DNA of 62,428 bases, filler included. It is 4 parts of 4 records of this genome, joined end to end, with 100 filler letters (N's around TTAATTAATTAA, not from the genome) between each part and the next. Parts side by side here need not be neighbours in the genome. Positions count along the whole stretch, not along the records: positions 54,171 to 62,428 come from SRR22947727_6074; 3 more parts are not named here. One strand, written 5' to 3'. This document shows positions 2,685 to 62,428 of this stretch, in pieces (positions within the stretch are counted from its first letter, which is position 1; each line of letters opens with the position of its first letter). The position numbers were made by a program, and so were the translations under genes. The notes beneath the pieces were generated by a model. It was not told the DNA's origin. It did not search any database and saw only the letters and a list, made by a program, of their open reading frames with translations.

Positions 2685-3936
2685 TTTCTGCCTCCCCGTT
2701 TTCACGCACCCACCAAGTTTGAATGCAATTATTGTGATAGATTGAGTTGAGACCGCGCACCTCGCGGAGCTGTGCTTTGGTCGGCTGCACATAGCCCGTC
2801 TCATCCATGGCCCGCGATTGCAAAAGCATTTCCGAGCCATCCCAATCCACATCCAGATAAAAGCGGGTGAGCGCCATTTTCTCGCCAGGCTTGGCCAAGC
2901 GGGCGGTTTCCCAGGTCTTGCCCCCGTCTCTGGACACATCCACGCGGGTGATGGCACCATTTCCAGACCAAGCCAGCCCGGTGATCACCAAAGGCCCTTT
3001 GCCATGGGTGATGGGGGCTTGTGGGCTTGGAGAGGTCACAACAGATTTCGCATCCATGGCCCATGTCCATTTCCGGCTGGTGCCGTCCTCAAGCGTATCG
3101 GTATATTTTGACGTTTCCTCGCGGGATTCTACCGGCTCATTGGTCACCTCAATACGGCGGATCCATTTGACCCACATATTGCCTTCCCAACCGGGCACAA
3201 CCAAACGCACCGGATAGCCATGCTCTTTGCGCAGGGCTTCGCCATTGGCCTTGAAGGCCACCAGAACATCGTCCAAAGCCTTTTCCATGGGAATAGAGCG
3301 CCCGTTCGATGAGGCATCCGCCCCTTCGACAAAGACCCATTTGCCCGCTGTGTCATACCCGGCTTCTTGCAAAAGCAGGCGCAGCGGCACACCGGTATAT
3401 TCCATATTGTGGATCATACCATGGGTGAACTGCGCGCCATTGAGCTGCGCGCCGGCCCATTCCATGCCCGTATTGGCCGCGCATTCGCAGAAATACACAT
3501 GGTTTTCCCGTGGAAAGCGCTCCAAATCTTCATAGGTAAATACCAAAGGCGTATCAACCAACCCATTGATCATCAAACGGTAATCACTTTTCTTAAGGTC
3601 AATCGCGCCAGAGTGGTGACGCTCAAAAGCGCAGCCCTGCGGTGTGATCGTGCCATCGAGTGCATGGATCGGTGTGAAATTGATCGAACTGACCGTATCG
3701 GCGGTCAACCACTCCACATTGCGGCGGATAACATCCCCCTCATATTCAATCGGCAAACCATAAGGCGTGGCATCAACACCATCGCCGAAGCTTTGCGCCC
3801 AGTCTTGGGGCTCGACAATCAAGGGATCCGCAGTTTGCGCCCGCGCTGCGGAAGAGGTCACAACCCCTGCCCCAACTGCCGCGGCGCCACTCAAAAACGC
3901 CCGGCGGGATGGTTTTTTGACGTTATATGTCGACAT
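2668..3936 (-). CDS. soxC: Sulfur dehydrogenase molybdopterin subunit SoxC
   Basis: Tat signal SRRAFL; FERHHSG, CECAANTG, EHGYPVRL, YHNNCIQTW sulfite-oxidase-family motifs; position in the sox operon. Confidence 0.95.
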   Translation of the reverse strand: MSTYNVKKPSRRAFLSGAAAVGAGVVTSSAARAQTADPLIVEPQDWAQSFGDGVDATPYGLPIEYEGDVIRRNVEWLTADTVSSINFTPIHALDGTITPQGCAFERHHSGAIDLKKSDYRLMINGLVDTPLVFTYEDLERFPRENHVYFCECAANTGMEWAGAQLNGAQFTHGMIHNMEYTGVPLRLLLQEAGYDTAGKWVFVEGADASSNGRSIPMEKALDDVLVAFKANGEALRKEHGYPVRLVVPGWEGNMWVKWIRRIEVTNEPVESREETSKYTDTLEDGTSRKWTWAMDAKSVVTSPSPQAPITHGKGPLVITGLAWSGNGAITRVDVSRDGGKTWETARLAKPGEKMALTRFYLDVDWDGSEMLLQSRAMDETGYVQPTKAQLREVRGLNSIYHNNCIQTWWVRENGEAENVEVS

Positions 3937-21979: not shown

Positions 21980-22079
21980 NNNNNNNNNNNNNNNNNNNNN
22001 NNNNNNNNNNNNNNNNNNNNNNNTTAATTAATTAANNNNNNNNNNNNNNNNNNNNNNNNNNNNNNNNNNNNNNNNNNNN
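21980..22079. other. Artificial contig linker
   Basis: 44 N + TTAATTAATTAA + 44 N. Confidence 0.99.
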
Positions 22080-43209: not shown

Positions 43210-43309
43210 NNNNNNNNNNNNNNNNNNNNNNNNNNNNNNNNNNNNNNNNNNNNTTAATTAATTAANNNNNNNNNNNNNNNNNNNNNNNNNNNNNNNNNNN
43301 NNNNNNNNN
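43210..43309. other. Artificial contig linker
   Basis: 44 N + TTAATTAATTAA + 44 N. Confidence 0.99.
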
Positions 43310-54070: not shown

Positions 54071-54170
54071 NNNNNNNNNNNNNNNNNNNNNNNNNNNNNN
54101 NNNNNNNNNNNNNNTTAATTAATTAANNNNNNNNNNNNNNNNNNNNNNNNNNNNNNNNNNNNNNNNNNNN
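54071..54170. other. Artificial contig linker
   Basis: 44 N + TTAATTAATTAA + 44 N. Confidence 0.99.
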
Positions 54171-57100
54171 AGTGATGAAATAACATTAACTCAACCAGAT
54201 AATCCATTAGCCATTTCAGAAAGTATTTCTAATGTTCTTTGTTTTGGTCAAAGTAATGGTGAAATAGATATTACAGTTACTGGTGGAACAGTAAATTATT
54301 CATATCAGTGGTCTAAACAAGGCGATGCCAATTACAATGCAACATCTCAGGATATAACTGGATTAACACCTGGCACTTATACAGTTGTAGTAACTGATGC
54401 GAATGGTTGTCCTAAAAGTAAATCTTTCACTGTAACACAACCTGATAATTTAGTTATAAGCTCCATTGTTTCAGATTACAATGGGTTTGAAATTTCCGGA
54501 AATGATAAAAATGATGCTTTTATTGACCTAACGGTTCAAGGAGGAACAGCGCCTTTCAGTTTTTCGTGGACAACTAATGGAGGAAGCGGTTTAGATGTTA
54601 ATGCAGAAGATCAGACTAAACTAGGACCTGGAACTTATAATGTTACTGTTACTGATGCGAATGGTTGTCCTGAATCTGCTGAATATGTAATTGAGGAACC
54701 AGACGAACTTGATGACAACGAAAATATTCCAACATCAAATACTTTTCAAATTAGTTGTAATGGAGATAATGATGGAGCTATCAATATTACTCCATCTGGA
54801 GGATCTGGTTCCTATACTTTTAACTGGACGTCAAATGTTTCAAATAGTGGACTAGTTCAGGGTCAAGAAGATCAGTCTAACTTAAAACCTGGCTTATATA
54901 CTTTAATTTTAACTGATTCAAATGGAAACAGATCAACATTTAACTATACTCTAACAGAACCAAATGCTATTTTAATTGAAGCAGAACTATCTAATTATAA
55001 TGGATTTGGAGTAAGTAAACAAGGCGCTTCAGATGGTAAGATAGAGTTGTCAGTTACAGGCGGGTATTTAAGTAGTGGAGAGGATTATACTTATATCTGG
55101 TCAACTACAAATGGTAGTGGATTAACTCAGGGAGAACAAGATCAAACTGGATTGAGTGCAGGTACTTATGAGGTAATTATTAAAGACAGTAATGATTGTG
55201 AAGAAGAAAGAGAATACACTCTTAGGGAACCAGCAGAATTAACCTTAGATTTAGATTTATCTGTTTTTGGAAACTTTAATATAAAATGTTTTGGAGATGA
55301 TAACGGATCTATTGATTTAACTATTACAGGAGGTTCTGGAACTTACACTATTGTTTGGTCTACTACAGATGGAGGAACTGGATTAGTACAAGGTCAGGAA
55401 GATCAAAGCGGATTAGGACCAGGAACTTATACTGTTAAAGTAACAGATAGTAATAACGTTGAGGTCAATAAAACAGTTCAAATTACAGAACCATCACTAT
55501 TAGAGTTAGATAGTTCAATACCGTTATTTAATGGATATGCTATTTCTTGTAATGGAGGAAATAATGGTTCAATTGATATTTCTCCGTCTGGTGGAACAGG
55601 TGCATACACTTACACTTGGTCTACAACCAACGGATCAGGACTTACAGCTGGAGCTGAGGATCAGACTGGACTTACTGCGGGGACTTATTTCCTAACATTA
55701 ACAGATTCAAATAATTGTCCAACAACTGAATCATTTGTTCTTCAGGAACCTGATGCAATTAATATTTCTGCTAATCTTTCAAATTATAATGGCTTCGAAG
55801 TTAGTGGAGCAGGTGAGTCCGATGGTGAAATCAATATAACAGTTGGTGGTGGTATAGAAGCTTATTCTTACCAATGGTCGACAAGCGACGGAAGTGGTTT
55901 AGATGTTAATGCTGAAGATCAAACTGGTTTGACTGCTGGAACTTATACAGTTTTAGTAACTGATCAGAACTTATGTGCTGAAACTAAAGTATATAAATTG
56001 AGCGAACCTGATCAGCTATCATTTAATAAAAATGTTTCAATTTTTGTTGGAGGTTTTAATATTAGCTGTAAAGATGCTGATGATGGTTCTATAGATATTA
56101 ACCCATTAGGTGGTAGTGGAACATATACTTACATTTGGTCTACCAACAACGGATCAGGATTAGTGCAAGGAGATCAAGATCAAACCGGTTTAGGACCTGG
56201 AACTTATTCATTTATATTAAGAGATTCAAATGGCAATGAATCTTCTCAAGATTTTACATTAACAGAACCTAATGAAGTTTTACTTTCTAGCACTATTTCC
56301 GATTATAATAATTTTGAAGTAAGTTGTTTTGGAGGGGCAGACGGCGAGATAGACATTTCTATTACAGGGGGGACATCTGTTTACACGTATAATTGGACAA
56401 CGAGTAATGGAGTTGGTCTTGTGCAAGGTCAGCAAGATCAAACAGGACTTACTGTCGGGTCATATTCTGTTATTGTTACAGACGAGAACGGTTGTTCTAT
56501 CACAAAATCATTTACACTTACATCACCAAATGAAATAGCAATAATATCAACTAAAAAAGACTACAACGGGTTTAACGTGTCTTGTAACGGATCAACTGAT
56601 GGTGAAATTGATATCGAGGTTTCGGGAGGATATTTAGATACTGGGGCTGTATACTCATATTCATGGACTACTGATGGAGGGAGTGGTTTAAATCCTAATA
56701 CTGAAGATCAAACTGGATTAAGTGCAGGATCTTATACTGTTATTGCTACAGATGATAACGGGTGTACAATGAGTCAAACAATAGTTATAACAGAATCAGA
56801 TATTTTAAATATTAGTGAAGTCATCTCTGATTACAATGGATTTCAAATAAGTGAAGCTGGTGAAAATGATGGCTCAATTAATATATCCGTTTCAGGCGGA
56901 ACTTCAAATTACTCATATGTTTGGTCAACATTAGACGGTTCAGGTCTTTCTATAAATAATGAAGATCAAAATTCTCTTACTGCAGGAACATATTCTGTTA
57001 TTGTAACAGACACAAACGGATGTGTTATCAATAAAGAATACACCTTAATTGAACCTAAAGAACTTTTAATTTCATTAGATAACGACGCCTATAAAAACGA

Positions 57101-59582
57101 TGTTTTTTGTTATGGAGATTCAACAGCTTCAATAAAAGTAGACATCACTCAAGGTTCAGTTGCCCCTTACACCTATTCAATAAACGGAACTACATATTTA
57201 AACGAAAATTACAGTCAGTCTTTTGAGAGTATTTCTAATTTGACATATACTTTCACAAATCTTACAGCAGGCTCGTACTCAATTACTATTACTGATACAA
57301 ACGGAGCTAGTAAAACTTTATCAAAAGATATAAGAGGACCAGACAATCCTTTAGGATTAGAAGGCTCAACAACTGATATTACTTGTAATGGTGCAGCTGA
57401 TGGTATAATTGATATTACAGTTAGCGGTGGAGGTGGTTCTTCAAATCAATTTACGTACTTTTATTCATGGACAACTTTAGATGGAAGTGGTTTAGATTCA
57501 ACATCAGAAGATCAGTCTGGTTTAGGTCCTGGAACCTATACAGTTGTAGCAAAAGATATAAATGATTGTGAAATTACTAAATCATTTACCATAACTCAAT
57601 CGCCTCCATTAACGTATAATTTAGATTCAACTAAGAATATTACATGTAAAGGAGACAATGATGGTGAAATTAACATAACTGTCACTGGTGGAACAGGAAA
57701 TTACACATACGAGTGGTCGACCGAAAATGGTAGTGGATTAGCTCAAGATCAAGAAGATCAAAGCGGTTTAGGTCCTGGTAATTATAAGCTAATTCTTAGA
57801 GACGGCTGTAATACTTTTGAATATATATATACGATAACTACACCAGATTCTCTGGAAATTTCTTTAGACGAAAAAGTTAATGTTTTATGTCATGATGATA
57901 GTACGGGAAAAATTAATATTTCTGTAAGCGGAGGAACTCTTCCTTATAATTATGTTTGGAAAGATAATTTTGGAAACGTTTATGATAGAAATGTCGGAAA
58001 TGTATTTAATGATGGAGATCTATCAAATATTCCAGCAGGGCTGTATGATTTGACAGTTACAGATGCTAATTATTGTATTGCAACATATTCAACAGAAATT
58101 ACTCAGTCTGAAGATTTATTAATTCAAATTGATAAAACAGATTTAAATTGCTATGATTCTAATGACGGATCAATAAAAGTAACTCCTAGTGGCGGAGTTG
58201 CTCCTTATACTTATGCATGGAACGATTTTGGGAATGGAGATTTTAGACAAAATCTTTCAGCAGGCAGTTATCAAGTAACTATAACAGATTCTAATGGATG
58301 TATTGAAATTAGAGATGTTGAAATACTAAATGCTCCATTATTCGACGTAAATCCAATCGTCACTCCAGTGTCTTGTTTTGGAGCCAATGACGGCTCAATT
58401 GAACTTAACTTTGAAGGGGGCATAGCTCCAATAAGTTTTAATTGGACAGATGATTCTTCTGCCGGTCAAGTAAGAAATAATTTATCACCAGGCTTATATT
58501 CGGTTTTAATTACTGACGGTTCTGGATGCGAAATTCAAGAGGATTTTGTTATTATTGAACCTAAAGAAATTTCCATAGCAGGTGTTATAACTGATGCTAT
58601 TGACTGTGACAACCCAGAGAGTGGAAGCATAGACCTGCAGGTTTCAGGAGGAAATCTTCCTTACACTTTTTTATGGTCAAACGGAGCAACTACAGAAGAT
58701 GTTTCAAATTTACTAGCAAACAATTATTCAGTTAAAATCACTGACAGTAAAGGCTGTACTGCTGAAAAAGAATTTTCAATTAATAGACAAGAGGATTTAG
58801 AGATTAGTTTACAATCTGACTTTTTTGCTATATGTGAAACTAAAGAAGTATATCAAAAAAATATTGTAACGGTGCTCGGAGGGGTTGCTCCTTATACAAT
58901 AGAATGGTCAAATGGGCTTGTTTCTGGCGGTAATAATGAAATTATGGATACCAAAATTGAAGGATCCTATCAAGTGACAGTAACAGACTTTTTAGGGTGC
59001 TCTGAATCTTTAGTTTTTGATGTGACAACTCCAGTAATAGGATCTCCAGAGTTTGAATATGATTCTTTCTACTTGCAAACCTACGAAGCGTTAGCAGTCA
59101 ACGATCCAATAACATTTACTAATTTATCCTCTGAAGAATACACTAATGTTAGCTGGGATTTTGGAGATGGGAATACTTCGAATGAAGAAAACCCCGTACA
59201 TACTTACTCTAGAAGAGGTGAATACGATGTGACATTAACTGTTGAATTTATTTTGGGATGTTCTTATTCAATTACAAAAACCATTTATGTTGGTGATCCA
59301 TACGAAATTGTTATTCCTAATGCTTTTACACCTAACAATGATAATTTTAATGATGTGTTCAGACCGATATATTATGGATTTAAGAGTATCACTATTGGCA
59401 TATATGATACGTGGGGAACTTTAATTTATTCAGAAGAAACAACTGCAAATGAGATGACAGGATGGAATGGAAGAATTAAGGGCATGGAATCTGAAAATGG
59501 AAATTATTTTTACCAAATATCTGGTACAACTCACACAGATGAAGAGTTTAGTAAAAATGGTAGTTTTACCCTAATAAAATAA
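54171..59582 (+). CDS. Large SprB-repeat/PKD surface protein with T9SS type-B C-terminal domain (5' truncated, >=1803 aa)
   Basis: Frame open from 54171 (292 codons upstream of the track start; SDEITLTQPDNP...); 19 SprB-like repeats (C-G--DG-I-I-V-GG...Y-Y-W...L-AG-Y-V-VTD-NGC); PKD (WDFGDG...NPVHTY); IPNAFTPNND-ND-F...IYD-WG...GWNG...G-YFY. Confidence 0.92.
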   Translation, partial: SDEITLTQPDNPLAISESISNVLCFGQSNGEIDITVTGGTVNYSYQWSKQGDANYNATSQDITGLTPGTYTVVVTDANGCPKSKSFTVTQPDNLVISSIVSDYNGFEISGNDKNDAFIDLTVQGGTAPFSFSWTTNGGSGLDVNAEDQTKLGPGTYNVTVTDANGCPESAEYVIEEPDELDDNENIPTSNTFQISCNGDNDGAINITPSGGSGSYTFNWTSNVSNSGLVQGQEDQSNLKPGLYTLILTDSNGNRSTFNYTLTEPNAILIEAELSNYNGFGVSKQGASDGKIELSVTGGYLSSGEDYTYIWSTTNGSGLTQGEQDQTGLSAGTYEVIIKDSNDCEEEREYTLREPAELTLDLDLSVFGNFNIKCFGDDNGSIDLTITGGSGTYTIVWSTTDGGTGLVQGQEDQSGLGPGTYTVKVTDSNNVEVNKTVQITEPSLLELDSSIPLFNGYAISCNGGNNGSIDISPSGGTGAYTYTWSTTNGSGLTAGAEDQTGLTAGTYFLTLTDSNNCPTTESFVLQEPDAINISANLSNYNGFEVSGAGESDGEINITVGGGIEAYSYQWSTSDGSGLDVNAEDQTGLTAGTYTVLVTDQNLCAETKVYKLSEPDQLSFNKNVSIFVGGFNISCKDADDGSIDINPLGGSGTYTYIWSTNNGSGLVQGDQDQTGLGPGTYSFILRDSNGNESSQDFTLTEPNEVLLSSTISDYNNFEVSCFGGADGEIDISITGGTSVYTYNWTTSNGVGLVQGQQDQTGLTVGSYSVIVTDENGCSITKSFTLTSPNEIAIISTKKDYNGFNVSCNGSTDGEIDIEVSGGYLDTGAVYSYSWTTDGGSGLNPNTEDQTGLSAGSYTVIATDDNGCTMSQTIVITESDILNISEVISDYNGFQISEAGENDGSINISVSGGTSNYSYVWSTLDGSGLSINNEDQNSLTAGTYSVIVTDTNGCVINKEYTLIEPKELLISLDNDAYKNDVFCYGDSTASIKVDITQGSVAPYTYSINGTTYLNENYSQSFESISNLTYTFTNLTAGSYSITITDTNGASKTLSKDIRGPDNPLGLEGSTTDITCNGAADGIIDITVSGGGGSSNQFTYFYSWTTLDGSGLDSTSEDQSGLGPGTYTVVAKDINDCEITKSFTITQSPPLTYNLDSTKNITCKGDNDGEINITVTGGTGNYTYEWSTENGSGLAQDQEDQSGLGPGNYKLILRDGCNTFEYIYTITTPDSLEISLDEKVNVLCHDDSTGKINISVSGGTLPYNYVWKDNFGNVYDRNVGNVFNDGDLSNIPAGLYDLTVTDANYCIATYSTEITQSEDLLIQIDKTDLNCYDSNDGSIKVTPSGGVAPYTYAWNDFGNGDFRQNLSAGSYQVTITDSNGCIEIRDVEILNAPLFDVNPIVTPVSCFGANDGSIELNFEGGIAPISFNWTDDSSAGQVRNNLSPGLYSVLITDGSGCEIQEDFVIIEPKEISIAGVITDAIDCDNPESGSIDLQVSGGNLPYTFLWSNGATTEDVSNLLANNYSVKITDSKGCTAEKEFSINRQEDLEISLQSDFFAICETKEVYQKNIVTVLGGVAPYTIEWSNGLVSGGNNEIMDTKIEGSYQVTVTDFLGCSESLVFDVTTPVIGSPEFEYDSFYLQTYEALAVNDPITFTNLSSEEYTNVSWDFGDGNTSNEENPVHTYSRRGEYDVTLTVEFILGCSYSITKTIYVGDPYEIVIPNAFTPNNDNFNDVFRPIYYGFKSITIGIYDTWGTLIYSEETTANEMTGWNGRIKGMESENGNYFYQISGTTHTDEEFSKNGSFTLIK

Positions 59583-59585
59583 ATT

Positions 59586-60704
59586 ATGAAAAAACAATTA
59601 TTAATTATTTTACTATTTCCTTTTTTGCTTTTTTCTCAATCAAATAGTGATTGTAATTATAAAAAAAAATATGATAATGGAGATGTTTATGAGGGTTGTA
59701 GAGATGTTGAAGAAAGACGTAATGGAAAAGGTAAATATACATGGGCTGATGGCTCGTATTATAATGGGGAATGGGTTAATAACAAAAAAGAAGGAATAGG
59801 AGAATATAAATTTAAAGACGGCTCCATATTCAACGGTGATTGGGTTAATAATAAAAGAAATGGGCTTGGAAAATTTATAAGTTCAAGTGGGGATACTTAT
59901 TATGGATTCTATAAAAATGATATGAGAAATGGTGAGGGTAAACGCTCATACACTGTTGGGAACATTAAAGTATCACAAAATGGAATTTTTAAAAATGACA
60001 TGTTTTTTAGCGGAGAGTATTTACAATTAGATAGTATAGATGGAACAATAGTTAAAACAATCTTTGAAGATGGTGATAGAAAAAACTCTATTCAAACTTC
60101 CCCGGAGTTTACAATAAAAACAAAAGGATCATATTTTTCAAACGGGACTTTAAAGTCTGGGACAAAAACAGTGTTAAAAAAAAATGGAGAAGTAGTAGTT
60201 TCAGAATTTAAGAATGGAGATGAGGTTTTGAATAGTATTCGAAGCAACATTAAAAATTATTACAATGAAAACGATATTAAAGGTATTTTGGAGTCAATAA
60301 TTATAGATTTAGAGTTTGAGGAAAATGACAATACTAAGTATGTTAACCTAAGTTTTCTAACTAATAATAAAACCCAAACTGATAACGAAAGATTTATTTT
60401 TGATACTGGCGCTGAAATGTTTTCTATTGGTTATAATCTTTTTAACAAATTAAAAGAGAATGGATTAGATTATGTTGATTTAGGGATTGTAGTCCCAACA
60501 ATAGGAGTCAGAGGAGAAACAAGTGAAAACAATGTCATTATAATAAAAGAAATTAGAATAGGCGAATATAAATTAATGAATATTATTGCATTTGTTGAAA
60601 CGTTGGAAACAGCTAATTCCTCACTTTTGGGAATAGGATTTTTAAAGAAATTTAGTGAAGTTCAATGGTCTTTAATAAGTAATCAACTGATTTTGTATAA
60701 ATAG
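59586..60704 (+). CDS. Exported MORN-repeat protein with C-terminal clan AA (retropepsin-like) aspartic protease
   Basis: Signal peptide; G-G-Y-W-DG--Y-G-W-NNK MORN repeats; FIFDTGAE catalytic motif; SLLGIGFLKKF. Confidence 0.85.
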   Translation: MKKQLLIILLFPFLLFSQSNSDCNYKKKYDNGDVYEGCRDVEERRNGKGKYTWADGSYYNGEWVNNKKEGIGEYKFKDGSIFNGDWVNNKRNGLGKFISSSGDTYYGFYKNDMRNGEGKRSYTVGNIKVSQNGIFKNDMFFSGEYLQLDSIDGTIVKTIFEDGDRKNSIQTSPEFTIKTKGSYFSNGTLKSGTKTVLKKNGEVVVSEFKNGDEVLNSIRSNIKNYYNENDIKGILESIIIDLEFEENDNTKYVNLSFLTNNKTQTDNERFIFDTGAEMFSIGYNLFNKLKENGLDYVDLGIVVPTIGVRGETSENNVIIIKEIRIGEYKLMNIIAFVETLETANSSLLGIGFLKKFSEVQWSLISNQLILYK

Positions 60705-60744
60705 ATTTCAAGTAATAAAACACATTTCTTTATAGTAGTTGATT

Positions 60745-61827
60745 TTAAATCTTAACAAAAATCTTTCTTTTATACATCTGTTTTACAATTAAGTAAATAA
60801 AAAAGGTGTAAAAGAGCGCCCACATTAAAGAGATTAGTTGGGGATCAATCCCAGTTGAAATTCCAAAATCCATCCAGTTTTGCTGAATACCTCTTTCATT
60901 AAATATTGGAATTTGAAAAAGCCTCCAAAGCATTGAGTGTAAGACATAAGCAAAGATTGCATTCGATCCAAATACAATTCCAAAATGAAAGGGTTTAGTT
61001 TTCTTTTTTAAATCTATTGTCCAGATGCAACTTGCAAGAAAGAGCATAGCAAGACCAGAACTAAATAAAACATATGAACTTGTCCAGATGTGTTTATTCA
61101 TTGGAAAACTATAATCCCAAAGCATACCAAGACACATTGCACTAAATCCAACTACAAAAATTAAAATGATTTTATCTTTCAAATCCTTTGATTTGTTTAA
61201 AAGAACGTGTCCACAAAACATTCCAGATAAGCCAGTTGCGATCGCAGGAATTGTACTAAAGAAACCTTCTGGATCCCAAGTTTTTTGATACATCCTTCCT
61301 GGTGTGATAAACTGATCCACCCAAGCAGCAAAATTAGTTCCTGGCTCGAGTGTTCCAGCTAATACATTATCAAAAGGAATCTTTGTCATAAAAACCCAAT
61401 ATAGAAGAAGTAAAATAATCCCAATCCAAATTTGAACTAGAAAAGAGGAGTTAAGATAAATTACAGAACAGAAAAGGTAAACAAGAGCAATCCTTTGAAG
61501 AACTCCAGCTATTCTTAGATTTTCGAAATCGAAATTTGGAAATAACGCTAAAAAAAGCCCAATCGAAAAAATAATTATTGTTCTTTTTATGATTTTAAAA
61601 TAAATAGACTTGTCTGTTTTATTTCTTTTTGAAAGAGCTAAAACAATTGAAACTCCAACTATAAATAAGAAAAATGGAAATACTAAATCAGTAGGGGTAA
61701 CACCATGCCAATCAGCATGTCTTAACGGAGGATAAACATAAGACCAACTCCCAGGATCATTTACAACAATCATTGCAGCAATTGTGAGGCCTCTAAAAAA
61801 ATCTAATGAAATTAACCTTGAATTCAT
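60745..61827 (-). CDS. Heparan-alpha-glucosaminide N-acetyltransferase-like (HGSNAT/NagX-type) membrane protein
   Basis: RLISLDFFRG; HADWHG-TPTDLVFPFFLF; GVLQRIA; DPEG; PMNKHIWTSSY. Confidence 0.88.
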   Translation of the reverse strand: MNSRLISLDFFRGLTIAAMIVVNDPGSWSYVYPPLRHADWHGVTPTDLVFPFFLFIVGVSIVLALSKRNKTDKSIYFKIIKRTIIIFSIGLFLALFPNFDFENLRIAGVLQRIALVYLFCSVIYLNSSFLVQIWIGIILLLLYWVFMTKIPFDNVLAGTLEPGTNFAAWVDQFITPGRMYQKTWDPEGFFSTIPAIATGLSGMFCGHVLLNKSKDLKDKIILIFVVGFSAMCLGMLWDYSFPMNKHIWTSSYVLFSSGLAMLFLASCIWTIDLKKKTKPFHFGIVFGSNAIFAYVLHSMLWRLFQIPIFNERGIQQNWMDFGISTGIDPQLISLMWALFYTFFIYLIVKQMYKRKIFVKI

Positions 61828-61847
61828 TTAATCAAGGTACAAATTAT

Positions 61848-62428
61848 TTATAAGCCCAAACCCTCAAGATCCTCAGCCTCAGAGCTGTCTTCTTCTACAG
61901 GCTTTATAGTTTCACAATCAATGGGGATTGAAAGTTCTTCGGGAGCTAAAAAATCTTCTTTGGAAATACCTAGACCTTCATTTTCGTAACATTTTTTCAT
62001 AAACATTCCCCATATAGGAAGAGCCATAGTTGCGCCTTGCCCATAGGCGATAGTTTCAAAATGAGTTGCCCTGTCTTCAGCACCTACCCAAACACCGGTA
62101 ACTAAATTAGGAACCATCCCCATAAACCAACCGTCGCTTTGATTTTGAGTAGTACCTGTTTTTCCAGCAATTGCATTGTCAAAACTATAAGGATATCCTG
62201 TAACAACGTCTCTGTAAACTGGGTTTCTCTCTTCTTCAGGAATATTATGTCTTAATCTAGCTCCAGATCCAAATTTTGTTACACCCTCTAATAAATTAAC
62301 AGTAACATAAGCTGACTCAGCACCTATAACATCCTTAGTTTCGGGCGCAGATTGGTACAATAAGGTTCCGTTTTTATCTTCAATTCTAGAAACCATAGTT
62401 GGCTTAACATAAATTCCTTGGTTTGCAA
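61848..62428 (-). CDS. Penicillin-binding protein 1A, C-terminal part (5' end off the window)
   Basis: Frame open to the edge (ANQGIYVKPTMVSRIEDKNG); AGKTGTTQNQSDGWFMG; GVWVG; GATMALPIW. Confidence 0.9.
   Translation of the reverse strand, partial: ANQGIYVKPTMVSRIEDKNGTLLYQSAPETKDVIGAESAYVTVNLLEGVTKFGSGARLRHNIPEEERNPVYRDVVTGYPYSFDNAIAGKTGTTQNQSDGWFMGMVPNLVTGVWVGAEDRATHFETIAYGQGATMALPIWGMFMKKCYENEGLGISKEDFLAPEELSIPIDCETIKPVEEDSSEAEDLEGLGL

What the first reader, a model, noticed from the sequence alone, without database searches (positions are those of the whole stretch)
54171..59290. Cysteine co-loss between neighbouring SprB repeats: inter-domain disulfide staples with four unstapled junctions
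Seen: each of 19 repeats has an early Cys slot (C1, e.g. ISC-G) and a late slot (C2, D-NGC). C1 is missing in repeats 2, 4, 7, 11 (EISGN, GVSKQ, EVSGA, QISEA; ~54490, 55011, 55800, 56847). C2 is missing in exactly repeats 3, 5, 8, 12 (DSNGN, DSNNV, DSNGN, DTNGA; ~54915, 55446, 56223, 57294). No repeat loses both of its own Cys, but C1(n) and C2(n+1) agree at all 19 junctions, counting the PKD ILGC as the last partner. A random match would be 1 in C(19,4)=3876, though duplication history makes the repeats non-independent. Inference: the disulfide links domain n to n+1, which fits tandem Ig geometry (A-B loop facing the next F-G turn). The filament would be rigid segments separated by unstapled hinge, extensible or cleavable joints, fully stapled near the C-terminal anchor. 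I do not know whether this rule has been described.
Basis: partly seen in the sequence, partly recalled or inferred. Interest (0 to 1): 0.78.

Follow-up and report, generated by a model that had tools for sequence, protein, structure and literature searches.

The report
Disulfide-laddered SprB-repeat surface protein
This is part of an ordinary secreted Bacteroidota-type surface filament whose antibody-like beads are very probably tied each to the next by a cysteine bridge, as already seen in a solved relative, while the idea that the four unbridged joints are purpose-built hinges remains untested.

Summary
The ORF 54171-59582 (+) is cut at its 5' end by a contig boundary. It encodes 19 SprB-type repeats of about 86 aa, then a PKD domain and a type-B T9SS sorting domain. 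The early Cys (C1) is missing in repeats 2, 4, 7 and 11. The late Cys (C2) is missing in repeats 3, 5, 8 and 12. All 31 cysteines fit a C1(n)-C2(n+1) pairing: 15 pairs, plus one Cys whose partner lies in the missing 5' part.

The rule holds family-wide. In 121 close homologues there were 3484 junctions with both Cys, 70 with neither and 7 discordant. In 141 further representatives of separate 50%-identity clusters the counts were 5617, 97 and 42. Both Cys of one repeat are almost never lost together (0 and 1 cases). Direct-coupling analysis ranks C1(n)-C2(n+1) as the strongest inter-repeat coupling in both sets.

The nearest solved structure is the Aureispira grappling-hook protein GhpA. Its cryoEM paper reports disulfides between neighbouring Ig-like domains, and the example bond maps to C1(n)-C2(n+1). 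So the inter-domain staple is well supported but not new in kind.

The hinge, extensible or cleavable reading of the unstapled joints is unsupported. Those joints instead recur with a Gly/Asn replacement and an aromatic insertion. This scan noted the same rule earlier on other DNA.

The parts
54171..59582 (+). ORF truncated at its 5' end by the contig start, 1803 aa plus stop: a SprB-repeat T9SS surface protein. It corresponds to residues 940-2743 of the 2743-aa homologue P0003.
54192..59030 (+). Array of 19 SprB-type Ig-like repeats (R1-R19, 75-95 aa each), contiguous with gaps of 0-2 aa
   Evidence: Pfam PF13573 513 bits, 18 stretches; own repeat profile finds 19 domains
54498..54929 (+). 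Unstapled junction R2/R3: C1 slot is Gly110, C2 slot is Asn253. Recent loss, specific to this lineage.
55017..55460 (+). Unstapled junction R4/R5: C1 slot is Lys283, C2 slot is Val430. Shared with homologues down to about 52% identity.
55806..56237 (+). Unstapled junction R7/R8: C1 slot is Gly546, C2 slot is Asn689
56853..57308 (+). Unstapled junction R11/R12: C1 slot is Glu895, C2 slot is Ala1046
59088..59288 (+). PKD domain. Its only Cys (C1697, nt 59259-59261, in the turn equivalent to F-G) is the inferred partner of C1 of R19 (C1555).
   Evidence: PF18911 51.8 bits; the PKD Gly-Cys columns are at least 90% conserved in alignment A1; rule for the last repeat
59310..59561 (+). C-terminal type-B T9SS sorting domain (CHU_C)
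   Evidence: PF13585 45.7 bits against cut-off 27; TIGR04131 46.3 bits against cut-off 35 in P0003

Best explanation
The gene encodes the C-terminal two thirds of a T9SS-exported fibrillar surface protein built of tandem SprB-type Ig-like beads. In each bead, C1 sits in the A-B loop at the C-terminal pole and C2 sits in the F-G turn at the N-terminal pole. C1 of bead n therefore bonds to C2 of bead n+1 across the junction. This gives a ladder of inter-domain disulfides, 15 in this fragment, that ends on the equivalent Cys of the PKD domain. When one Cys of a pair is lost, its partner is a free thiol and is soon lost or re-partnered, which produces the strict co-loss. Four of the 19 junctions here have lost the staple. 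Shown: the pattern, its generality, and the structural and sequence kinship to GhpA. Inferred: the bond itself in this protein, that it forms in the periplasm before export, and its stiffening role.
For: Set 1 is the window protein plus 120 homologues (3757 repeats, 3561 scored junctions). It has both Cys present at 3484 junctions, both absent at 70, C1 only absent at 6 and C2 only absent at 1. Within one repeat, both were absent in 0 cases against 244 single absences. Set 2 is 141 new representatives of separate 50%-identity clusters (6205 repeats, 5756 junctions). It gives 5617, 97, 13 and 29, and within one repeat 1 double absence against 324 single ones. The 97 co-absences lie in 23 proteins. 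C2(n) and C1(n+1) show no association (2 and 7 co-absences). Direct-coupling analysis ranks n:21 with n+1:77 at 15 of 14196 column pairs in set 1 and 5 of 14196 in set 2, the top inter-repeat pair in both. The same-repeat pair 21-77 ranks 7174 and 13147. Exceptions compensate. In P0193 and P0232, repeats without C1 are followed by an extra Cys at the start of the next repeat. With a stricter caller, 39 such junctions appear in set 2. For the last repeat of an array, C1 absent goes with no Cys downstream in 28 of 28 proteins, and C1 present goes with at least one downstream Cys in 68 of 69. The AF2 model of residues 1-439 has mean pLDDT 90.8. Its strand order A-B-C-C'-E-F-G puts C1 just before strand B and C2 at the F-G turn, at opposite poles. 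GhpA fragments are the best structural matches (Foldseek E 2.7e-11; VIA Z 10.2-12.3, and for 9g8b 298 residues at 6.0 A). The repeat profile hits the GhpA sequence at E 4.7e-16. The GhpA preprint reports many intramolecular disulfides between nearby Ig-like domains, with Cys2988-Cys3140 as the example (passages and the Fig. S8 legend read). Profile-aligned C2-type Cys in GhpA fall at about 2961 and 3222. Thus 2988 equals 2961+27, the C2-to-next-C1 spacing, and 3140 equals 3222-82, one repeat earlier. This is a C1(n)-C2(n+1) bond.
Against: No SG-SG distance was measured, because the structure tool returns no coordinates, and there is no chemical evidence for this protein. The mapping onto GhpA rests on alignment ranges and spacing arithmetic, not on residue-by-residue superposition. 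The counts are not phylogenetically independent, since repeats duplicate and set 1 holds many orthologues. Discordant junctions exist, and their number depends on the calling rule. There are 7 in set 1 and 42 in set 2 with wide zones. A strict anchor leaves 35 and 31 unexplained. Of the strict-anchor cases in set 1, most (28 of 35) are one recurring first-repeat motif whose printed segment shows a Cys shifted by loop length. A few lone losses look real (P0063 repeat 10 Cys to Tyr, P0014 repeat 30).
Confidence: 0.85

Rival explanations
1. The unstapled junctions are selected mechanical elements (hinges, force-extensible joints or protease-accessible joints) that divide the filament into rigid segments.
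For: Three of the four unstapled positions are kept in homologues down to about 52-60% identity. Unstapled junctions are rare family-wide, about 2% of junctions, but make up 4 of 19 here. The C-terminal 7 junctions are all stapled.
Against: Conservation is expected without selection, because restoring a pair needs two simultaneous changes. Part of the pattern is explained by duplication of a two-repeat unit. Unstapled junctions are enriched for an aromatic insertion next to the C1 slot: 63 of 70 against 498 of 3484 in set 1, and 29 of 97 against 429 of 5617 in set 2. They also recurrently carry Gly at the C1 slot and Asn at the C2 slot (14 of 70 and 23 of 97). This suggests a packed, non-covalent alternative junction. 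The stretch from the conserved Asp of repeat n (column 73) to the conserved Gly of repeat n+1 (column 36) differs by only 1-3 residues between junction types. AF2 pLDDT is above 90 across the R2/R3 junction, as at the stapled ones.
Confidence: 0.15
2. The disulfides lie within a repeat (C1(n)-C2(n)), and the neighbour co-loss is only an accident of repeat duplication.
For: Most repeats carry exactly two Cys, so this is the naive default. Some of the window's co-loss units are paralogous.
Against: Both Cys of one repeat are co-absent in 0 cases in set 1 and 1 case in set 2, against 568 single absences (244 and 324). The DCA coupling 21-77 within a repeat ranks 7174 and 13147 of 14196. In the AF2 topology the two sites are at opposite poles. 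The R2/R3 double loss is recent and not inherited by duplication. This reading would also leave 8 unpaired Cys in this fragment.
Confidence: 0.03
3. The short-range pair C2(n)-C1(n+1), about 30 residues apart, forms the bond across the linker.
For: The two are close in sequence. In set 2 this column pair has a weak coupling (rank 128, score 0.86).
Against: There is no co-absence signal: 2 of 219 in set 1 and 7 of 267 in set 2. The pair ranks 12126 in set 1. In the window, every repeat that lacks C1 is preceded by a repeat that keeps C2. The two sites would lie nearly two domain lengths apart in the inferred topology.
Confidence: 0.02

Closest known systems
GhpA, grappling-hook protein of Aureispira sp. 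CCB-QB1 (PDB 9flp, 9fls, 9flu, 9flv, 9flw, 9flx, 9fly, 9g8b; bioRxiv 10.1101/2024.01.29.577165)
   Same: It is a T9SS substrate made of tandem Ig-like repeats. It gives the best structural matches to the AF2 model over four to five consecutive domains. The shared F-G motif '..G.Y.v.vtD.nGC' is detectable by profile (E 4.7e-16). CryoEM shows intramolecular disulfides between neighbouring Ig-like domains, with an example bond 152 residues apart, against 126-153 here.
   Different: GhpA is a 5898-aa protein whose stem is a heptamer of parallel strands. Only 16-18% of residues are identical to the model over its stem fragments. Its repeats score weakly against the SprB profile and mostly lack the N-terminal SprB motif. 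The paper, as far as I read it (text passages and the Fig. S8 legend, not the figures or supplements), does not describe a co-loss rule or unstapled junctions.
SprB of Flavobacterium johnsoniae and other SprB-repeat (Pfam PF13573) type-B-CTD T9SS surface proteins
   Same: The same repeat family (513 bits, 18 stretches) and the same CHU_C sorting domain. The family is very large: 50404 cluster representatives at E<=0.001.
   Different: A role in gliding is not shown for this protein. No sprF/porP-like gene follows it, and the upstream side is lost at the contig end. That SprB is the 6497-aa gliding adhesin comes from the GhpA preprint's discussion and from recall.
Ca2+-rigidified extender repeats of RTX adhesins (e.g. 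MpAFP region II; PMC4083281, PMC7493085, search listing and abstracts only)
   Same: Tandem Ig-like beads whose junctions are stiffened so that the protein projects from the cell.
   Different: Stiffening there is by Ca2+ bound in the linkers, not by covalent bonds, and the fold family and the secretion system (T1SS) differ.
Phage capsid decoration Ig-like domains (PDB 5lxk, 8zvi 'Decoration protein'; 3shs Hoc)
   Same: The repeat profile matches them (E 1.5e-9, 3.6e-9, 6.6e-5) and they share 'GGt.PYtY.W ... aG.Y.v.vtD'.
   Different: In the printed alignments for 5lxk and 8zvi the C1 and C2 positions are not Cys, as expected where no disulfide ladder is formed (3shs was not shown residue by residue).

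Membership tests
SprB repeat (Pfam PF13573) | Match to the family HMM above the gathering score, in tandem copies | tested here: met
   513.2 bits against cut-off 28, 18 stretches
T9SS type-B sorting-domain cargo (PF13585 CHU_C / TIGR04131) | C-terminal sorting domain above the curated cut-off | tested here: met
   PF13585 45.7 bits against 27 at residues 1714-1797; TIGR04131 46.3 bits against 35 in the 98%-identical P0003
T9SS type-B sorting-domain cargo (PF13585 CHU_C / TIGR04131) | Adjacent PorP/SprF-family outer-membrane partner gene (typical of type-B cargo; recalled) | tested here: inconclusive
   The downstream gene is a MORN-repeat protein with an aspartic-protease-like domain, not PorP/SprF. 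The upstream side is missing at the contig end.
PKD domain (PF18911/PF00801) | HMM match above the gathering score | tested here: met
   51.8 bits against 27 and 40.7 bits against 23.5; PDB PKD domains hit by sequence
GhpA-type inter-domain disulfide ladder | Tandem Ig-like fold superposable on the GhpA stem over several domains | tested here: met
   Foldseek E 2.7e-11; VIA Z 10.2-12.3, and for 9g8b 298 aligned residues at rmsd 6.0 A
GhpA-type inter-domain disulfide ladder | Cys of bead n covalently bonded to Cys of bead n+1 | not testable with these tools
   Only indirect support is available: covariation, DCA, topology and mapping of GhpA Cys2988-Cys3140. No coordinates and no chemistry.
GhpA-type inter-domain disulfide ladder | Heptameric parallel-strand stem | not tested
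   No oligomer prediction was run.
SprB gliding adhesin (functional sense) | Movement along the cell surface and requirement for gliding | not testable with these tools
   This needs genetics or microscopy, and the organism is unknown.

The most novel reading that the evidence does not exclude
SprB-type filaments have two alternative, heritable junction types. One is a covalent Cys-Cys staple. The other is a non-covalent junction, typically Gly/Asn with an aromatic 'YNGF' insertion. Their order along the array would set the local stiffness or force response of the filament, so mechanics could be read from sequence. The four unstapled junctions here would then be functional soft or extensible points.
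Probability: 0.15. Interest if true: 0.6.

Novelty: new member of a known kind. Interest (0 to 1): 0.35.

Why it matters
SprB-repeat proteins are among the largest and commonest surface proteins of Bacteroidota (50404 cluster representatives). Their Pfam model covers only 37 residues and says nothing about disulfides. A simple sequence rule, C1(n)-C2(n+1), allows a disulfide map to be drawn for any member. The rule also explains why Cys are lost in neighbour pairs. It flags re-partnered variants that use a linker Cys, and it identifies junctions without a staple for mechanical study. It also extends the GhpA cryoEM observation to the canonical SprB repeat family. It is not a new mechanism.

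Tried and rejected
1. The whole-protein homologue search timed out and was rerun on residues 1-440.
2. phmmer of the whole protein against PDB found only PKD-domain relatives and weak phage hits. GhpA appeared only with the repeat profile and by fold.
3. A strict caller anchored on Gly36 produced many false 'C1 absent' calls where the loop between C1 and the GG motif varies in length. It is kept only as an upper bound on discordance.
4. Clustering co-loss junctions by identity is a poor measure of independence, because all repeats are about 40% alike. At the 50% identity threshold it gave 7 clusters in set 1 and 37 in set 2. At 60% and 70% it gave 58 and 69 in set 2.
5. Comparing linker length and Pro content between stapled and unstapled junctions was confounded by the insertion in the next repeat and by partial alignments. 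It gives no evidence for or against hinges.
6. The rule that the first repeat of an array lacks C2 is only weakly enriched (17 of 106 and 22 of 254), presumably because flanking domains supply Cys.
7. The window's own assembly is not held, so T9SS or Dsb genes of the organism could not be checked.
8. SG-SG distances could not be measured, because structure prediction returns no coordinates.
9. Literature searches found no statement of the co-loss rule: 'SprB'+'disulfide', 'SprB repeat', 'interdomain disulfide'/Ig-like/adhesin/tandem, disulfide/adjacent domains/T9SS/Ig-like and GhpA/grappling hook. The SprF-GldK disulfide paper PMC12635249 (passages read) concerns a different bond.
10. Metal binding by the Cys pairs was considered and rejected. 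There are only two ligands per site, the protein is extracellular, and the solved relative shows disulfides.
Full report
WHAT THE DNA IS.
The window is four contigs joined by N spacers with a TTAATTAATTAA linker (N runs at 21980-22079, 43210-43309 and 54071-54170). The finding lies in the last contig, 54171-62428. That contig has about 33% G+C, against about 54% for the rest. The reading frame is open from the first base of this contig to the stop at 59580-59582, so the gene is cut at its 5' end. The 1803-aa product (P0001) has 18 Pfam SprB-repeat matches (513 bits). It also has a PKD domain (residues 1640-1706) and a CHU_C type-B T9SS sorting domain (1714-1797). It is 98% identical to residues 940-2743 of a complete 2743-aa metagenomic protein, P0003. 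P0003 also passes TIGR04131. It is therefore an ordinary member of the very large family of SprB-repeat surface proteins of Bacteroidota-type bacteria. There are 50404 cluster representatives at E<=0.001.

THE OBSERVATION.
I cut the array into 19 repeats and aligned them. A profile built from them finds all 19 as contiguous domains of 75-95 aa. The early Cys (C1) is profile column 21 and the late Cys (C2) is column 77.
- C1 is replaced in R2, R4, R7 and R11 (by G, K, G and E).
- C2 is replaced in R3, R5, R8 and R12 (by N, V, N and A).
All 31 cysteines of the fragment belong to these two slots or are the single PKD Cys. Under C1(n)-C2(n+1) they form 15 pairs, 126-153 residues apart. That leaves C80, whose partner would be in the upstream repeat lost at the contig end.

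IS IT MORE THAN CHANCE?
Inside this protein the four cases are not fully independent. R2, R4, R7 and R11 are each other's closest repeats (51-61% identity), and so are R3, R5 and R8 (51-53%). So a two-repeat unit was probably duplicated. Two cases stand apart.
- R12 is unrelated to R3, R5 and R8 (26-33% identity).
- The R2/R3 loss is recent. In an alignment with 18 homologues, only the window protein and the 98-99% identical P0003 lack these Cys. Sixteen of 18 have Cys at the R2 slot (one is gapped) and 17 of 18 at the R3 slot. These include the five homologues at 85-88% identity, whose register is secure.

The wider test is decisive. Set 1 is P0001 plus the 120 best homologues of 991-3156 aa. 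It has 3757 repeats and 3561 scorable junctions. With wide Cys zones, it shows 3484 junctions with both Cys and 70 with neither. In 6 only C1 is missing and in 1 only C2. Within one repeat, the two Cys are never both missing, against 244 single absences. C2(n) against C1(n+1) shows 2 co-absences among 219 absences. An earlier strict-column count gave 3374, 67, 4 and 10.

Set 2 is 141 new representatives of separate 50%-identity clusters. These are the best 150, of which 9 were already in set 1. It has 6205 repeats and 5756 junctions. The counts are 5617 with both, 97 with neither, 13 with only C1 missing and 29 with only C2 missing. The same-repeat comparison gives 1 double absence against 324 single ones. 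The 97 co-absences lie in 23 proteins.

The discordant cases are instructive.
- In P0193 (5 junctions) and P0232 (2 junctions), a repeat without C1 is followed by an extra Cys in the first residues of the next repeat. C2(n+1) is thus re-partnered locally.
- In P0222, the 'C1-zone' Cys is really a strand-A Cys paired with an extra strand-G Cys.
- 'G.CDG' Cys (column 25) pair with column 63.
- A few 'C..C' loops appear to pair with themselves.
- Real lone losses are rare (for example P0063 repeat 10, Cys to Tyr, and P0014 repeat 30).
A stricter caller anchored on Gly36 leaves 35 unexplained cases in set 1 and 31 in set 2. Of the set 1 cases, most (28 of 35) are one recurring first-repeat motif whose printed segment shows a Cys displaced by loop-length variation. 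I give these numbers as an upper bound.

INDEPENDENT LINES OF SUPPORT.
- Coupling analysis. Mean-field direct-coupling analysis was run on concatenated neighbour repeats. It ranks column 21 of n with column 77 of n+1 as the strongest inter-repeat coupling in both sets. That is rank 15 of 14196 in set 1 (3470 sequences, effective number 2376) and rank 5 in set 2 (5670 sequences, effective number 5287). The same-repeat pair 21-77 ranks 7174 and 13147. The other top couplings are plausible beta-sandwich contacts (68-82, 42-69, 33-42, 9-83). The strongest of all is 25-63, an optional second Cys pair. So the method is seeing contacts.
- Array ends. In set 1, the last repeat lacks C1 in 28 proteins, and all 28 have no Cys downstream. 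It has C1 in 69 proteins, of which 68 have at least one Cys downstream. Twenty-four were not scorable. That Cys column is at least 90% conserved in alignment A1.

STRUCTURE.
AF2 on residues 1-439 (R1-R5), with 18 homologues as alignment, gave mean pLDDT 90.8 and pTM 0.64. The tool gives no coordinates, so SG-SG distances could not be measured. The strand order is seven strands in R1: 14-20, 30-37, 44-49, 52-57, 62-65, 68-75 and 81-88. This puts C1 (residue 24) in the A-B connection and C2 (residue 80) in the F-G turn. In a seven-strand sandwich whose termini are at opposite ends, these lie at the C-terminal and N-terminal poles. A bond within one domain is then geometrically implausible. C1(n) faces C2(n+1). 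This is inference from topology.

The best PDB matches are cryoEM fragments of GhpA, the T9SS grappling-hook protein of Aureispira (Foldseek E 2.7e-11; VIA Z 10.2-12.3 over four to five domains). The repeat profile also finds the GhpA sequence (E 4.7e-16). I read passages and the Fig. S8 legend of the preprint 10.1101/2024.01.29.577165. I did not see its figures, supplements or journal version. [quoted passage not shown]

In the profile alignment, C2-type Cys of GhpA fall at about 2961 and 3222. The VIA ranges (model 10-356 on chain 2892-3236) place these on the model's C80 and C343.
- Residue 2988 is 27 residues after a C2, which is the C2-to-next-C1 spacing (25-31 residues here).
- Residue 3140 is one repeat (82 residues) before 3222.
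- Mapped onto the model, they fall at about 107 and 259, next to the C1 slot of R2 (110) and the C2 slot of R3 (253).
The solved bond is therefore of the C1(n)-C2(n+1) type, to the accuracy of range-based mapping.

MECHANISM AND WHAT REMAINS INFERRED.
The most likely mechanism (confidence 0.85) is a ladder of inter-domain disulfides. They would form in the periplasm before T9SS export; this step rests on general knowledge and was not tested. The ladder would stiffen and mechanically protect the filament. Co-loss follows because an orphan thiol is harmful. It is removed, or it is re-partnered by a new nearby Cys.

That claim is that the four unstapled junctions are hinges, extensible points or cleavage points.
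- Conservation of unstapled positions in orthologues is expected from a ratchet alone.
- Unstapled junctions are enriched for an aromatic insertion beside the C1 slot. The figures are 63 of 70 against 498 of 3484 in set 1, and 29 of 97 against 429 of 5617 in set 2.
- They also converge on Gly at the C1 slot with Asn at the C2 slot (14 of 70 and 23 of 97). This includes the recent R2/R3 event here.
These features suggest a packed non-covalent junction rather than a loose one, although the counts are not phylogenetically independent. I give the hinge reading about 0.15.

NOVELTY.
Inter-domain disulfides in a T9SS Ig-like stem are in print for GhpA. My searches found no paper stating the rule or the co-loss for SprB repeats. 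Subscription journals and supplements were not searchable. After I had reached GhpA, a look-up showed that this scan had already noted the same rule on other DNA (e1-5250418 and e1-5304507). Those notes reached the same conclusion, including that 'programmed hinges' were not supported. This is therefore a new member of a known kind. It is a sound and useful sequence rule, of moderate interest.

Noticed in passing
window 1-62428; N runs at 21980-22079, 43210-43309, 54071-54170: The window is four contigs joined by N spacers. The last contig (54171-62428) has about 33% G+C against about 54% for the others. The nearest held genome, G001, is complete and shares 45% of the window's words, but it has no match to 59000-62428. 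The low-GC contig may therefore be mis-binned or a strain-specific island.
   Followed up: partly
repeat profile columns 25 and 63, and 68/69 with 81/82 (homologues P0002-P0262): There are optional extra Cys pairs inside a repeat. Columns 25-63 form the strongest DCA coupling of all, with Cys in about 4% of set 1 repeats and 11% of set 2 repeats. Columns 68/69 with 81/82 form a cross-strand F-G pair. The window protein has none of these.
   Followed up: partly
P0193 repeats 24-38; P0232 repeats 1-4: In these proteins the C1 Cys is replaced, and a new Cys appears in the linker or first residues of the next repeat. This looks like re-partnering of C2(n+1) within its own domain, and it recurs with a three-repeat period in P0193.
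   Followed up: partly
window 59586-60704 (+): The gene directly downstream encodes a 372-aa protein with MORN repeats and a clan AA (retropepsin-like) aspartic-protease domain (PF02493, PF13975; TIGR02281 below cut-off). It is not the PorP/SprF-type partner usual for type-B T9SS cargo.
   Followed up: no
PDB 5lxk, 8zvi, 9occ, 9e99, 3shs against the repeat profile A2: Ig-like domains of phage capsid decoration, whisker and Hoc proteins match the SprB-repeat profile (E 1.5e-9 to 6.6e-5). In the printed alignments (5lxk, 8zvi, 9occ, 9e99) they share 'GGt.PYtY.W...aG.Y.v.vtD', and where the C1 and C2 columns are covered they are not Cys.
   Followed up: no
P0063 repeat 10 (residues 807-881): This is a lone C1 loss (Cys to Tyr) with C2 of the next repeat retained. 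It could be an evolutionary intermediate or a sequencing error.
   Followed up: no
AF2 model, residues 361-380 (R5 A-B loop, window about 55251-55310): pLDDT drops to 67-74 only in the C1 loop of the last modelled repeat, whose following repeat was not included. The same loop scores above 90 in R1-R4. This fits the loop packing on the next domain, but an end effect cannot be excluded.
   Followed up: no
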